From the NCBI GenBank assembly GCA_964016885.1, contig OZ024740.1, forward strand, positions 196,788,001 to 196,852,000: a stretch of DNA of 64,000 nucleotides, given 5' to 3'. The DNA is from Eledone cirrhosa. Taxonomy: Eukaryota. This document shows positions 39,187 through 49,738 of this stretch, in pieces. Each line of letters starts with the position of its first letter. Position 1 is the stretch's first letter. A model generated the notes under the pieces. The model was not told where the DNA came from and did not search any database. It was given only the letters and a program-made list of their open reading frames with translations. The position numbers and the translations under genes are program-made.

Positions 39187-39231
39187 AGTCATAGTCCTTT
39201 CGTCACACATTCTGTGACCTCTTCAGTGACT
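39187..39231 (-). ncRNA. Minimal type-I hammerhead ribozyme (PLE1 3' region)
   Basis: AGUCA-CUGAAGA-G-GUCACA gaaug UGUGAC-GAAA-GGAC-UA-UGACU. Confidence 0.8.
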
Positions 39232-39538
39232 GGGGATTCCTTTCTTCGTTTCTGTGCCTTTCCTTTCTTCTATCCTACACCATTTTGTTTCTGTGTGTGT
39301 GTTGTGTGCTCAGTTTGCGCATGCGCCACATCCGGGTGTCTGTGTGTGTTTGTGTTCATTTTTCTATTTTTCTATTTATATTTTTCTATTTGTTTATTTA
39401 TTTATTTATTTATTGTTGGTTGGTTGTTTGTTCTATGTGTGTGTGTGTTTTCATTTTGTCCTGTGTGTGTTTTCATTTTGTGTGTGTTTTCAATTGTAAG
39501 TTGTTTGTTCTATGTGTGTGTGTGTTTTCATTTTGTCC

Positions 39539-40837
39539 TTAATTGTAAGTTGTGATGTTGCTGTTCCACTCATATTTTCTATTTAATTTTGGTTTTAATT
39601 CTTTTATGCTTACTGCCTCTGTAATTTGCCTAAACATTGCGTCTTTTCTGTGTGTGGATTCTATTTTTATTTCTATGCTCTCTAATCTACCCCTGTGTTC
39701 TATCTTAGCATGTTGGTAGAGCACAGATGATTCTTTATTATCTTGGAGGTCTCGCCAGTGTTCATTTATTCGTTCCCCTATACTACGAGCTGTCTCACCT
39801 ATGTACACTATATTTTTGTTTCTACATTGTCCTTCAGTACATCTTATGCTATACACTACATTTCTAGTTTTACAGTTAATATGGGGGCTTATTTTACAGG
39901 TTATACATTTCTTATCTATACATGAGGGTCTTTGAAACGGGTATGTCTTGCTAATAAGTGTTTTTACGGAGGTACCAGGTCTTTCTACTATCTTAATATT
40001 GAGATTATGTTTATTTAGGGCCCTTCTAAATTTGTAGGCTAGTTCGCCTCTAGGGGTTGTATTGATGAACATTACACTCTGGTATTTATTGCTATCATAC
40101 CATGAGTTTATTCTATTGGCCTTGTTCCTAGTTCTTTCTATTCTATTCCAAAATTTGCTCCTATACAAGGGGCAGGTCCCATTTATGTCATTATTTACCA
40201 TTTTTTCCCATTTGGTTCTGGCTCCTTTATACACTCTGATTCTATCTCTCTGATTGTAGCCAGAGAACTGCATACGGTGGATGAAGTGTTGTATGTGTCT
40301 CTCTAGTTCTTCGGGGTTGCACATGCGGGACACATTTCTCATCACCCGTACCAAATCCGCAATCAGTATGTTGATTTTGGTATGGTCCGAAATGGCCGAG
40401 TTTCGGTGGATCAGATGTTTGGAAGTCATGGGTTTGGCATAATGGAAATGGAGGATTTGTTTTTGGTTGTTAATGGTATCTAACCAGAGCTCTGTGTCTA
40501 GTACAGGTAATCGATGGTTGGGGTGTCTACTTGGGTAGTCTATAGTAACTCTAATGCTCTGGTGGATGGAGTTTGCTATTTGCTGGATGCTTTCCATTGT
40601 GTTTTTCTCTAGTTCCTGACTGTTCTTTAGTGGGGGTGTCTTAACTACGATGTTTATATCATCTACGTAGCGGGAGTACATTATCAGGGTTAAGCTGTCT
40701 TCTAATTGTTCATTAAGTTTTTGTTTAAGTCTACTGTCCCACCATACCATGAATAAGTTAGCTATGTCGCCTGCAATGCTAACACCAATGGCTGCTCCTT
40801 CCTCTTGGGCATATGTTTTACCATTAAATTTGAACAT
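39539..40837 (-). CDS. PLE1 RT C-terminal half + GIY-YIG endonuclease (432 aa open frame)
   Basis: ORF track; YVDD and GIY-YIG motifs. Confidence 0.9.
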   Translation of the reverse strand: MFKFNGKTYAQEEGAAIGVSIAGDIANLFMVWWDSRLKQKLNEQLEDSLTLIMYSRYVDDINIVVKTPPLKNSQELEKNTMESIQQIANSIHQSIRVTIDYPSRHPNHRLPVLDTELWLDTINNQKQILHFHYAKPMTSKHLIHRNSAISDHTKINILIADLVRVMRNVSRMCNPEELERHIQHFIHRMQFSGYNQRDRIRVYKGARTKWEKMVNNDINGTCPLYRSKFWNRIERTRNKANRINSWYDSNKYQSVMFINTTPRGELAYKFRRALNKHNLNIKIVERPGTSVKTLISKTYPFQRPSCIDKKCITCKISPHINCKTRNVVYSIRCTEGQCRNKNIVYIGETARSIGERINEHWRDLQDNKESSVLYQHAKIEHRGRLESIEIKIESTHRKDAMFRQITEAVSIKELKPKLNRKYEWNSNITTYN

Positions 40838-41694
40838 ATGTTCCTTAAGGGTTAATTTTTTGTGCTGGCCCCTACCGCATGTGCAATCATTTTCTTCAGT
40901 TCATCGTGGTTTTCGGGTGTCCGTATGGCTCTGGTCCACTCGTTCCATCTATCTGTGTGGGTTTTCTTGGCCATTGAGGTAATGGTAGGTGGTCTGCCTC
41001 TTGCTGGTCTTGTAGGGCACAGGCTGCTAAGGTCATAAGTGTCTAAGTAACTATTACTATGGGTAAGCTTAAGTAGAAGTCCCAGCTCACTGGTATCAAT
41101 CCCACGGAACTCAACCTTGCTCTCGCTGATCATTTCTACGCATTTCTCCACAGCAAAATCCACGTCAATAGATGGATACAGGGACACAACATTCATACTG
41201 CCTATTATGCAGTTTGTTAGGTCCCCAGATCGGTTACCCGCGCCGATTCTGCTGAGGAGGTCCTCCGTGCTGTCACACACATCTGGGGACATCTCAATGA
41301 TGGGGCGTATGATCAGGGAGAGGAAGTAGGACAGTCTGTAGTTACTAGCAATGTTAGCCCCACAGACTGGCCGTGTTGGTGGTCCCGCGACAGGGTCCCA
41401 GCCCGTTTTATGGTCTTTTCGAAGCCCATACAACGCCGGCACGTCATTGTTCCAGGCCTGGAAGTTGTTGGCAGTCCTTTTGTTGGGCTGCATTATATTC
41501 GTCAAATTCAGAAACGAAATATATATATATATATATATATATATATATATATATATATATGTGTGTGTGTAGGAGGTGAGTTTTATTGTAGTACAATAAA
41601 GCAATGCAGATATCGGATAAGTAGCACTCTACAGTTTGTAGGACTGGAGTATAAATAATATATAAGATCAAAAGATGGTTAAAAGAGTTCCATG

Positions 41695-41765
41695 TATTTT
41701 ATTATGCGCATTTCAAAAACAAATATCATCATGCGATGATATTTGCGTTTTCGTCAGATAAAATA
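41695..41765 (-). ncRNA. Minimal type-I hammerhead ribozyme (PLE2 3' region)
   Basis: UAUUUUAU-CUGACGA-16-bp stem II (1 mismatch)-GAAA-UGCGCA (palindrome)-UA-AUAAAAUA. Confidence 0.88.
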
Positions 41766-42776
41766 GGGAGACATGATATGAAGGTTAAAAAACACTTGTA
41801 GATAGTGCAGTTTTAAATCAACATATGAAAAGTAGTTTTAGATTGATGTGTGATATTGGGGAAAAAATTGAGGGGGGTGGGGTGGAAAGGATGAAAAAGA
41901 GGAGGCGATGAGAGTAAAGAATGGAGGGGGGGGAGTATAATAAGGAAGGATGAGATAGGAGGAGAAATGGGTGATAGAGAGAGAGAGATAGCTTTTATAA
42001 CTGAGAAAAATATATTGTTTTACAGAGAGAGGTTAAAAAACCGTTGGAAGATAATATATAAATTAAAAGAATTTGAAAATTTACGAAGAGAAAAATTTTT
42101 GAATAATGTTAAATTAAGGTTTGTATATTGAAGGGTTTAATAATATGTGCGATGAAAAGAAATTGTTAATATGTATTAAGAATAATATTAAATTAAGGTT
42201 TGAATATTGAAGGGTTTAATAATATGTGCGATGGAAAGAAATTGTTGATATGTATTATTAAAAAAAATATAAAAATAGTAATGAAATTAAGGATATATTG
42301 TGAAAAGAAGTAGAAGAGCGGATGAATATGTGTAATATGTAGAAGTTAGATGAGCATGAAAGGGAGAAAAAAATAATGAATTGAGGATGAATAATCTAAC
42401 GTCAAAAAAAATGTTTATGTTTACGAAGGATTTTTCAAGGTGATACTATAAAGTATTTAAAAGGGTAATAGTAAGTTTTATGGCCAGTGATAGGATGGAA
42501 GAAGGAAGAGTGGATATATTGTGGTGAGTAATAATGAGAATTGAGAAGTATCTAGGAAGAAAAGGTACAGATTAGAGGTTAGAAATTAAAAGAAAAAAGG
42601 AAAAAAAGAAAGAAAAGGAAGTGATAAATAGGAGTGATATAGAATGAGTATTATATAATGTATAATAAATAACATTGAAATAAGGTAGAAAGATGGGTAT
42701 ATTTTTAAAGAAATATATATGTATATATATGTGCCTTTGAGAAAAAAAGGATTTTAAATTGGTAAAGTATTAGATA

Positions 42777-48530: not shown

Positions 48531-48622
48531 AATCCTGGTTTGTTTATTGAATATGGATATATATATATATATATATATAAAGAGTGAAAGTCAGTGTTGC
48601 AACATATGTACAAACTTTATTT

Positions 48623-48711
48623 GCATATTACAATTGTTTCGATATCGATCAGGTCAGGGTACAATCAAGGTGACGTGGCCCGGCCCTTTTTCGACATCTC
48701 GTCAGATATGC
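48623..48711 (-). ncRNA. Type-I hammerhead ribozyme with a 42-nt stem-II insert
   Basis: GCAUAU-CUGACGA-GAUGUCGA [42 nt] UCGAUAUC-GAAA-CAAUUG (palindrome)-UA-AUAUGC. Confidence 0.85.
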
Positions 48712-49157
48712 GAGCTTACATATGCAAAGACACATCTAAACTGGTGACAGATGTCCCGAGATCCGTTTATATACACTCATTGGTAAGTTTGTAGGAGTGG
48801 GGGGGGGGGGGGTAAACTAAGTTTAGGTTTAGAGGGTAGGGTATAAGGATGAAAGATAAATACATATATGTGTATATATATATATATATATATATACACA
48901 CACACACATACATATTTTTATGTATTTATATATATATATATATATATATATATACACACACACACATACATATTTTTATGTATTTATATATATATATATA
49001 TATATATATATATATATATATATATATATGTATATATGTGTGTGTGTGTGTGTGTGTATATATATATATATATATATATATATATGTGTGTGTGTGTGTG
49101 TGTGTGTGTGTGTAAAAGAAATCAAAGAACGCCTACATACTCATACAATTTTTATTT

Positions 49158-49202
49158 GCTGACAATGTTTCATCCATACCATTGGGCAGGGATCATCAGA
49201 GC
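49158..49202 (-). ncRNA. Minimal type-I hammerhead ribozyme
   Basis: GCU-CUGAUGA-UCC c UGCC caau GGUA u GGA-U-GAAA-CAUUG-UC-AGC (GUC cleavage triplet); stem I is short. Confidence 0.72.
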
Positions 49203-49627
49203 TTTATAAACAAAAATACAGTGCTGAGTATAAGCTCTACCAAGCTTAATCACATAAACATTAGAAATATATTAGAGGGTAACAAGAAGGAGATCGGAAA
49301 TGGGGAGTAACACTAGCAATGAGCAACCTCTCATATGTATTCCTAGATGGGATGGGTATGTTCTTAAGTGACAAAGGTAGGTAGTCTTTGGTTAGCATAC
49401 TGTCAGGTTTATATAAGCATACACCAGTAGATGTGTAGGTTATATCTATTAGCTCTAACAGAGGGAGCAGTATTATTTATGTAGACAACGAAGCGTATGT
49501 GCATAAACGCACCTGTACCGTGTCGTATTTAAGACAGTATTGTATAAGCTTAATGTACAAGAACAGAGCCATAGTGAAAGAATGAAGAGTAACATGGTTG
49601 ACTGTACAACAAGGGGCTTTATTTCAG

Positions 49628-49738
49628 GTAATAACAATTGTTTCATTGATCAGGCGAGTCTAGAGGCCGCTAATCGCTCGAAGTTGCGTCATTCGATCGC
49701 CATTACATTATTTACCTCTGATCAAATCCTCAGAATAC
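49628..49738 (-). ncRNA. Type-I hammerhead ribozyme with a 64-nt stem-II insert (PLE3 3' region)
   Basis: GUAUU-CUGAGGA-U UUGAUCAG [64 nt] CUGAUCAA U-GAAA-CAAUUG-UU-AUUAC; one mismatch in stem I. Confidence 0.68.

What the first reader, a model, noticed from the sequence alone, without database searches (positions are those of the whole stretch)
39187..49738. Dense cluster of nine hammerhead ribozymes from about seven families in 10.5 kb of stacked Penelope-like elements
Seen in sequence: nine motifs with the full hammerhead core (CUGAnGA, stem II, GAAA, short stem III, UH, closing stem I) at 39187, 41695, 44616, 47311, 47859, 48471, 48623, 49158 and 49628. Eight are on the minus strand, as are all three PLE ORFs. 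Stems differ between families while the core and pairing are kept, and most stem III segments are palindromic (UGCGCA, CUAG, CAAUUG). Established: PLE pseudo-LTRs carry minimal type-I hammerheads whose palindromic stem III is thought to work in dimers. Inference: this is a co-oriented PLE/retrozyme array in which a read-through transcript could be cut into several RNA units, some non-coding and possibly circularised, with PLE RT/GIY-YIG acting in trans. The ORF track misses this layer completely.
Basis: partly seen in the sequence, partly recalled or inferred. Interest (0 to 1): 0.9.

Follow-up and report, generated by a model that had tools for sequence, protein, structure and literature searches.

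The report
Penelope retroelement pile-up in TA repeats
The nine predicted self-cutting hammerhead RNA motifs are really in the sequence, but they are the ordinary end-motifs of seven abundant jumping-gene families that most likely landed one after another in the same TA repeats, not one RNA-processing unit.

Summary
All 9 motifs are confirmed; 0 appear in 500 shuffles. They belong to 7 high-copy families: four Hydra-clade Penelope-like elements (PLEs), one Neptune/Nematis-type PLE, a 424-bp non-coding retrozyme and one family without a found parent. All seven have fixed 3' ends beside microsatellites, mostly (TA)n, a known Hydra habit. Copies are 90-100% identical to their nearest relatives, and the two junctions tested are unique in the genome, so the stack likely built up by serial insertion. 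Background is 60 motifs per Mb, about 180,000 genome-wide: the cluster is about 14-fold denser and unusually family-rich, but a tail event. Co-orientation is not a rule: neighbouring families elsewhere are 11 same, 15 opposite, and a decayed tenth motif lies on the + strand. All three local ORFs are broken. Retrozyme 5' ends do not cluster at the cut site. What holds: the retrozyme carries the PLE two-site end footprint, supporting copying in trans. Cleavage and expression are untested. The scan has reported such stacks and this footprint before on other DNA of this genome.

The parts
37950..38001 (+). Decayed tenth hammerhead motif (C3 changed to U), outside the finding, on the opposite strand; its element ends in a TA tract near 38065
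   Evidence: Read in the sequence printed; matches many hammerhead-bearing loci
39023..41519 (-). P1: 5'-truncated, frameshifted PLE with CX4CXXC linker and C-terminal GIY-YIG (Neptune/Nematis type); TA tracts at both ends; 16-nt inverted stub of the family tail at its 5' end
   Evidence: best other copies 99.0% identical
39187..39231 (-). Hammerhead in the P1 3' pLTR, stem III GGAC, predicted cut at 39192
   Evidence: 39 of 42 homologous copies pass the descriptor
41568..44247 (-). P2: 5'-truncated Hydra-clade PLE (family B); ORF remnant 42777-44126; inverted 5' arm stub 44124-44247
   Evidence: best copies 98.8% over the pLTR
41695..41765 (-). Hammerhead in the P2 3' pLTR, stem III UGCGCA, predicted cut at 41703
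44247..45041 (-). A: 1.9 units of a 424-bp non-coding tandem retrozyme family; second unit broken off just before its hammerhead
   Evidence: 424-bp arrays elsewhere; no contiguous PLE ORF
44619..44661 (-). Hammerhead of retrozyme A, stem III CUAG, predicted cut at 44625
47184..47452 (-). Solo, 5'-truncated family B pLTR in a TA tract, with hammerhead 47311-47381
   Evidence: best other copy 96.9%
47846..48017 (+). Family C pLTR end (hammerhead 47859-47918), ending at the family's long 3' site; C is the pLTR of another Hydra-clade PLE
   Evidence: best other copy 95.9%
48436..48560 (-). Family C pLTR end (hammerhead 48471-48530), ending at the short 3' site, tail to tail with the + copy
   Evidence: (100% identical copies)
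48580..48866 (-). D: oldest element, pLTR-like fragment with long-stem-II hammerhead 48623-48711, stem III CAAUUG; no parent ORF found
   Evidence: best other copy 89.8%
49111..49570 (-). E: ORF-less derivative of a Hydra-like PLE; 5' UTR joined to the last 200 nt of the 3' pLTR at a short microhomology just before the start codon; hammerhead 49158-49202
   Evidence: parent in L273
49571..52790 (-). P3: Hydra-clade PLE split over four frames; its 3' end abuts E at E's TA-like tail site; hammerhead 49628-49738 with 8-bp stem II closing a long insert and a private stem I mismatch at 49631
   Evidence: best other copy 94.8%
47453..49110 (.). (TA)n/(CA)n microsatellite field holding five of the element ends

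Best explanation
The cluster is a pile-up of nine ends of Penelope-like retroelements and their non-coding passengers from seven abundant families, most likely built by separate insertions into shared TA-microsatellite targets, and each hammerhead is simply the motif its family carries in its terminal repeat. Shown: each family has many dispersed copies, two fixed 3' end sites 40-280 nt downstream of the predicted cut, and microsatellite at those ends. Inferred: a PLE RT-GIY-YIG protein made elsewhere nicks (TA)n, starts reverse transcription at the two internal RNA sites from the two DNA strands, and usually stops early, leaving short pLTR ends; each event leaves TA tract on both sides, which is a target for the next family; later deletions removed some arms. 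The 424-bp retrozyme and the ORF-less E unit would be copied by the same proteins in trans from templates that are uncut or re-ligated at the ribozyme, because copies read through the cut site. After insertion the motifs appear to decay neutrally; selection on the ribozyme acts in the mobile master lineages, not at this locus.
For: High copy: 903-2715 first-look candidates per family, lower bounds and not copy numbers. Ends: microsatellite follows one of two sites in all seven families; retrozyme A has 63 of 70 3' ends in two bands near cut+221 and cut+277, and 17 of 17 inverted pairs with both ends in a band have one of each (22 pairs measured); same rule in B (15 of 15 measured, 18 listed) and P1 (9 of 10). 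Hydra elements target (TA)n and carry hammerheads (PMC8557442 section 11); two internal RT start sites make the PLE tail (PMC11167929). Serial build-up: best-copy identity runs from 100% to 89.8%; junctions P3|E and A|P2 occur once in 3.0 Gb. Clumping is general: other families occur 30 times in 383 kb around anchors against 34 in 800 kb of spaced stretches; TA tracts and motif counts correlate, rho 0.34, p 0.002, n 80. No co-orientation rule: 11 same, 15 opposite, 20 ambiguous pairs in 263 loci. Decay: only 4 of 18 D copies and 8 of 19 P3 copies still pass the descriptor.
Against: Seven families in 10.5 kb is beyond anything in 100 sampled 10-kb stretches (maximum 3); a negative-binomial extrapolation gives only about 7 such stretches per genome, so plain clumping may under-explain it (fragile fit). 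Seven of seven orientable insertions lie on the minus strand (p 0.016 post hoc; 0.07 with the decayed tenth). Three junctions (A|P2, P3|E, the 5' side of A) have no TA tract, so deletion or template jumping must be added. The TA-motif correlation can run both ways.
Confidence: 0.85

Rival explanations
1. Same pile-up, but the minus-strand bias is real and comes from host selection: the region is read on the + strand (run-on from the upstream epimerase gene or a long 5' intron of the downstream receptor gene), so insertions that put a self-cleaving motif in the sense strand were removed.
For: A ribulose-phosphate 3-epimerase gene on + ends near 30150 and a secretin-family receptor ORF on + starts near 62613; 8 of 9 intact motifs are antisense to both; the + motif at 37950 has a broken core. 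Retrozymes are reported as excluded from introns and exons in Xenopus (10.64898/2026.07.22.740005 abstract).
Against: No exon was found that places the cluster inside a gene; an intact + motif sits at 47859; the flanking 200 kb has 6 + and 3 - motifs; minimal motifs cleave poorly as monomers (PMC4209133).
Confidence: 0.2
2. One reading: a co-oriented array in which one minus-strand read-through RNA is cut into several units, some circularised and copied by PLE enzymes.
For: 8 of 9 motifs on one strand; predicted stem III partners exist for two pairs, B with B (-10.5 kcal/mol) and D with P3 across families (-6.4); the active-like fold is within 0.6-5.4 kcal/mol of the minimum for 8 of 9.
Against: Different ages and unique junctions; no co-orientation of neighbours elsewhere; P1, A, E have no same-family partner on the strand and most cross-family duplexes are weak; P3's motif has a private stem I mismatch; local ORFs are broken; 8 of 9 frog retrozyme dimers tested showed no cleavage (preprint).
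Confidence: 0.07
3. Part of the stack (P3 on E, perhaps A on P2) was written in single events by reverse transcriptase jumping between RNAs of different families, which would give head-to-tail order.
For: P3's exact 3' end abuts E with only a 2-3 nt overlap and no TA tract; I saw no remainder of E at P3's 5' side; E itself is a microhomology join of 5' UTR and 3' pLTR.
Against: P3 joins E exactly at E's TA-like tail site, the expected target; P3 also sits in the internal TA tract of retrozyme A elsewhere (L170); most junctions in the stack have TA tracts; target deletions explain missing halves.
Confidence: 0.12

Closest known systems
Minimal type I hammerheads in pLTRs of metazoan PLEs (Cervera and De la Pena 2014, PMC4209133; parts 1-2 of 4 read)
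   Same: Core, short or absent helix III with palindromic sequence, long helix II, extra nucleotide at the base of stem II, many families per genome, mostly solo truncated copies, opposite-strand pairs 100-700 bp apart.
   Different: Load: about 180,000 estimated here against about 4,000-9,000 in the richest genomes named in that paper; some stem II regions reach 58-82 nt (D, P3); G10.1-C11.1 is often replaced by a U-U mismatch or an A-U pair.
Hydra clade of C-terminal EN+ PLEs, including Hydra-1_Obim (Craig et al. 2021, PMC8557442; passages, section 11, File S1 rows read)
   Same: CxCX5C linker, CxxC and CxH at the end of the endonuclease, DKT-type motif, hammerhead in the pLTR, (TA)n targets, inverted 5' arms with a tail on one end.
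   Different: At least four divergent Hydra-type families meet here (P2, P3 and the parents of C and E; protein pieces 33-59% identical); C and E parents have 2-2.7 kb 3' regions, longer than the <3 kb elements described. I did not align to Hydra-1_Obim itself.
Metazoan non-LTR retrozymes (PMC7229834, passages read; Li, Clavereau and Pollet 2026, 10.64898/2026.07.22.740005, parts 1 and 3 of 5 read)
   Same: Family A: non-coding 424-bp tandem unit with one type I hammerhead per unit, dispersed as monomers to long arrays.
   Different: A carries a minimal PLE-type motif and shows the PLE two-site, two-arm end footprint in (TA)n, which those papers (parts read) propose in general terms but do not map; circular RNA is not shown for A.
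Poseidon PAc of Anolis, in vitro mechanism (Frangieh et al. 2024, PMC11167929; parts 1-2 of 4 read)
   Same: Two internal RT start sites downstream of the hammerhead, AT-rich target, insertion from uncut RNA, no ends at the cut site.
   Different: Different clades here; spacing of the two sites is about 56-160 nt rather than 30-40; no biochemistry on these families.

Membership tests
Minimal type I hammerhead of PLEs | Core CUGAnGA...GAAA...UH with stems I and II | tested here: met
   9 of 9, 0 in 500 shuffles; descriptor tuned on these nine
Minimal type I hammerhead of PLEs | Short self-complementary helix III suited to dimers | tested here: met
   7 of 9 form a predicted homoduplex of -4.8 kcal/mol or better; 39187 and 49158 are weak. 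Across families 29 of 33 have the second pair, which the descriptor did not demand
Minimal type I hammerhead of PLEs | Compensatory changes among relatives | tested here: inconclusive
   Family A, 48 distinct rows: 94.8% cells paired, 14 double-changed cells mostly at one stem I pair; pairs with double change 3 versus 1.7 shuffled (79 of 500 reach it). Stems differ wholly between families but that is built into the descriptor
Minimal type I hammerhead of PLEs | Self-cleavage at UH | not testable with these tools
   needs in vitro transcription
Hydra-clade PLE (P2, P3, parents of C and E) | C-terminal GIY-YIG endonuclease after RT | tested here: met
   Order and GIY-YIG-like motif in P2, C parent, E parent; P3 has the homologous segment but a degenerate motif; Pfam gives no hit for P2 or P3
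Hydra-clade PLE (P2, P3, parents of C and E) | CxCX5C linker; terminal CxxC and CxH | tested here: met
   All three motifs in P2, P3 and C parent; E parent shows CxxC and CxH but my pattern did not find CxCX5C there
Hydra-clade PLE (P2, P3, parents of C and E) | DKG changed to DKT | tested here: inconclusive
   DKT in the C parent; VKT in the broken P3; region lost from P2
Hydra-clade PLE (P2, P3, parents of C and E) | RWK motif | tested here: inconclusive
   Not found in any element scanned; the N-terminal part is truncated or mutated in most
Hydra-clade PLE (P2, P3, parents of C and E) | Insertion into (TA)n and hammerhead in pLTR | tested here: met
Hydra-clade PLE (P2, P3, parents of C and E) | Placement in the Hydra clade by RT phylogeny | not tested
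   no reference proteins were fetched
Neptune or Nematis PLE (P1) | CX2-5CxxC linker before a C-terminal GIY-YIG | tested here: met
   weak RVT_1 hit E 8e-4
Neptune or Nematis PLE (P1) | Clade by RT phylogeny | not tested
   Neptune versus Nematis left open
Non-LTR retrozyme (A) | Non-coding tandem unit of 150-450 bp with a type I hammerhead per unit | tested here: met
   424-bp arrays of at least 8 units elsewhere; no contiguous PLE ORF in 43 A loci. The window copy has only one complete motif
Non-LTR retrozyme (A) | Expressed as circular RNA | not testable with these tools
   no RNA holder listed
Coordinated multi-ribozyme processing array | Common origin or conserved order and orientation | tested here: not met
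   ages differ, junctions unique, neighbours elsewhere not co-oriented

The most novel reading that the evidence does not exclude
Such stacks are nurseries of new mobile RNAs: a minus-strand read-through is cut by ribozyme dimers formed across families (D and P3 share the CAAUUG helix III; the two B copies pair over 5.6 kb), releasing chimeric units that circularise and are copied by PLE enzymes in trans, with the ORF-less 460-nt E unit as a retrozyme caught at birth.
Probability: 0.07. Interest if true: 0.75.

Novelty: new member of a known kind. Interest (0 to 1): 0.3.

Why it matters
As a locus it is ordinary for this genome: a dense example of known PLE habits. Two by-products have some value. 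First, the estimate of about 180,000 intact-looking hammerhead motifs from 40 or more families is far above the minimal-hammerhead counts in the papers read, so this animal is good material for asking what PLE hammerheads do, which PMC8557442 calls unclear. Second, the non-coding retrozyme shows the PLE two-site end footprint, genomic support for the proposed trans-mobilisation; the scan has noted this before on other DNA of this genome. Five paper searches listed no hammerhead census for an octopus genome; the library lacks most subscription papers and the preprint's supplements were not seen.

Tried and rejected
Ribozyme-made 5' ends: the window's A array starts 3 nt after the cut site, which looked like a fossil of in vivo cleavage. 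Rejected: none of the 28 copies printed (of 29 fetched) starts at the cut, and 72 mapped 5' ends are spread round the unit, 5 in the first 25 nt against about 4 expected. Rfam: no hammerhead family matched; the miRNA-type matches lie on microsatellites. Cluster inside the epimerase gene: rejected, its last coding exon ends near 30150. Cluster as a duplicated composite element: rejected for the two junctions tested. The C pair as one two-armed insertion: unlikely, the arms are tail to tail and differ in best-copy identity. Parent ORFs for A and D: none found in 43 A loci and 18 D stretches. Expression: no RNA holder listed, which is no evidence either way. Laying four public contig sets on 49150-50000 did not bridge the P3|E junction and says nothing on assembly accuracy; it did confirm the 49571 end and the private change at 49631. 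Background sampling stopped at 100 stretches; they were chosen at even steps, mostly on the four largest chromosomes, not at random.
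Full report
Observation. None appears in 500 shuffles of the region or 100 of the window. Stricter versions found five; I allowed a mismatch or bulge at the base of stem II and a 3-bp stem I to admit the rest, so the descriptor is tuned on this window. 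Rfam has no matching hammerhead model at any threshold tried. The motifs form seven families. A tenth, with C3 changed to U, lies on the + strand at 37950-38001.

Setting. The window lies in a 3.0-Gb genome with about 30 large contigs; size, microsatellite load and element types suggest an octopus, which is my inference. The cluster is between a ribulose-phosphate 3-epimerase gene on + that ends near 30150 and a secretin-family receptor ORF on + at 62613. I found no exon that puts it in an intron.

What carries each motif. 39187: 3' pLTR of P1, a truncated, frameshifted PLE with a CX4CXXC linker and C-terminal GIY-YIG, Neptune or Nematis type. 41695: 3' pLTR of P2, a truncated Hydra-clade PLE with an inverted stub; 47311 is a solo end of the same family. 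44619: a 424-bp non-coding unit that forms long tandem arrays elsewhere, i.e. a non-LTR retrozyme. 47859 and 48471: ends of a third Hydra-type family whose ORF-bearing copies I fetched. 48623: an old pLTR-like fragment without a found parent. 49158: an ORF-less derivative of a fourth Hydra-like family, its 5' UTR joined to the last 200 nt of the pLTR at a short microhomology before the start codon; another copy has a nearby but different join. 49628: 3' pLTR of P3, a Hydra-clade PLE split over four frames. None of the three local ORFs is whole. Each family gave 903-2715 first-look candidates in the genome, which are lower bounds.

How they got here. In all seven families copies end at one of two fixed sites downstream of the predicted cut and run into microsatellite, mostly (TA)n. 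In inverted two-armed insertions one arm uses each site: 17 of 17 for retrozyme A where both ends fall in the two bands (22 pairs measured; 63 of 70 ends in the bands), 15 of 15 measured for B, 9 of 10 for P1. This matches the tail found at one end of PLE insertions and the (TA)n targeting of Hydra (PMC8557442) and the two internal RT start sites shown in vitro for a Poseidon element (PMC11167929). P1 in the window is such an event, with a 16-nt second arm. Because the target is shared and each insertion leaves TA on both sides, families should nest; they do: other families occur 30 times in 383 kb around anchor copies against 34 in 800 kb of evenly spaced stretches, and P3 and B sit in the internal TA tract of A at other loci. 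Best-copy identities of the nine window elements are 100, 99.0, 98.8, 97.3, 96.9, 96.0, 95.9, 94.8 and 89.8%, and the P3|E and A|P2 junctions occur once in the genome. Serial independent insertion is the inference.

Is the density special? One hundred evenly spaced 10-kb stretches hold 60 motifs, none in 240 shuffled stretches, giving about 180,000 genome-wide (bootstrap 114,000-261,000). Seventy stretches have none, one has nine (a single-family array), and none has more than three families. The cluster is about 14 times the mean. A negative-binomial fit gives about 700 stretches with nine or more motifs but only about 7 with seven or more families; the second figure is a long extrapolation, and it is the main point against calling the cluster wholly ordinary. 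Unchecked notes of this scan describe several other multi-family stacks in this genome.

Is the orientation special? Seven of seven orientable insertions are on the minus strand (p 0.016, chosen after the fact; 0.07 with the tenth motif). Elsewhere, different families in one locus are 11 same, 15 opposite and 20 ambiguous in 263 loci; the flanking 200 kb has 6 + and 3 -. Chance plus loss of second arms is enough; selection against sense-strand ribozymes in a + strand host transcript is a live but untested rival.

Do the ribozymes work? Not testable here. For structure: 29 of 33 families pair the second position of helix III without being asked to; in family A 94.8% of cells pair, but double changes sit mostly at one pair. 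After insertion copies decay: 39 of 42 P1, 48 of 61 B, 100 of 128 A, 42 of 44 C, 4 of 18 D, 12 of 23 E and 8 of 19 P3 copies still pass (some loci overlap). The window's P3 motif has a private stem I mismatch and the largest folding gap, 8.5 kcal/mol. On one minus-strand RNA only B with B and D with P3 have strong predicted helix III partners; A with C is marginal at -4.8. Published minimal motifs cleave weakly and only as dimers (PMC4209133), one needs the PLE protein, and 8 of 9 frog dimers did not cleave (preprint). The 5' ends of A copies are spread round the unit with no peak at the cut, so templates were uncut or re-ligated; this fits a circular or long tandem RNA equally.

Comparison and verdict. 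The motifs are new members of the known minimal PLE hammerheads; P2, P3 and the parents of C and E meet the Hydra motif tests that could be run, without a phylogeny; A meets the sequence definition of a non-LTR retrozyme. The trans-mobilisation part is supported by the end footprint, which earlier notes of this scan also report for other families in this genome. Interest 0.3.

Noticed in passing
genome G000, 100 stretches L051-L130 and L281-L300: About 60 intact-looking hammerhead motifs per Mb, about 180,000 genome-wide, from at least 40 families among all loci fetched.
   Followed up: partly
L098:4136-9771: Tandem array with a period of about 556 bp, each unit with a long-stem-II hammerhead (helix III CUAAUUAG); nine motifs passed the scan.
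   Followed up: no
window 49111-49570 and L147: Two ORF-less derivatives of the same Hydra-like PLE join the 5' UTR to the pLTR at nearby but different points next to the start codon; possible recurrent route from PLE to retrozyme.
   Followed up: partly
window 48623-48711 and 49628-49738: Families D and P3 share helix III CAAUUG and carry 58- and 82-nt stem II regions; cross-family dimers are predicted possible.
   Followed up: partly
window 21060-30150 +: Intact-looking ribulose-phosphate 3-epimerase gene, five coding exons found.
   Followed up: partly
window 62613-63875 +: Single-ORF secretin-family receptor (HRM and 7tm_2).
   Followed up: no
window 2572-6250 -: LTR retrotransposon pol remnant in two frames: RT, RNase H, integrase.
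   Followed up: no
window 45681-46214 -: 177-aa fragment that looks from memory like the endonuclease end of a non-LTR retroelement; no Pfam hit, a few diverged copies.
   Followed up: no
window 59890-62200 -: Long overlapping open frames of 514-734 aa without Pfam hits in the two scanned; not examined.
   Followed up: no
window 45051-45515: Repeat with several copies 70-90 kb upstream (L033, L034), suggesting local duplication.
   Followed up: no
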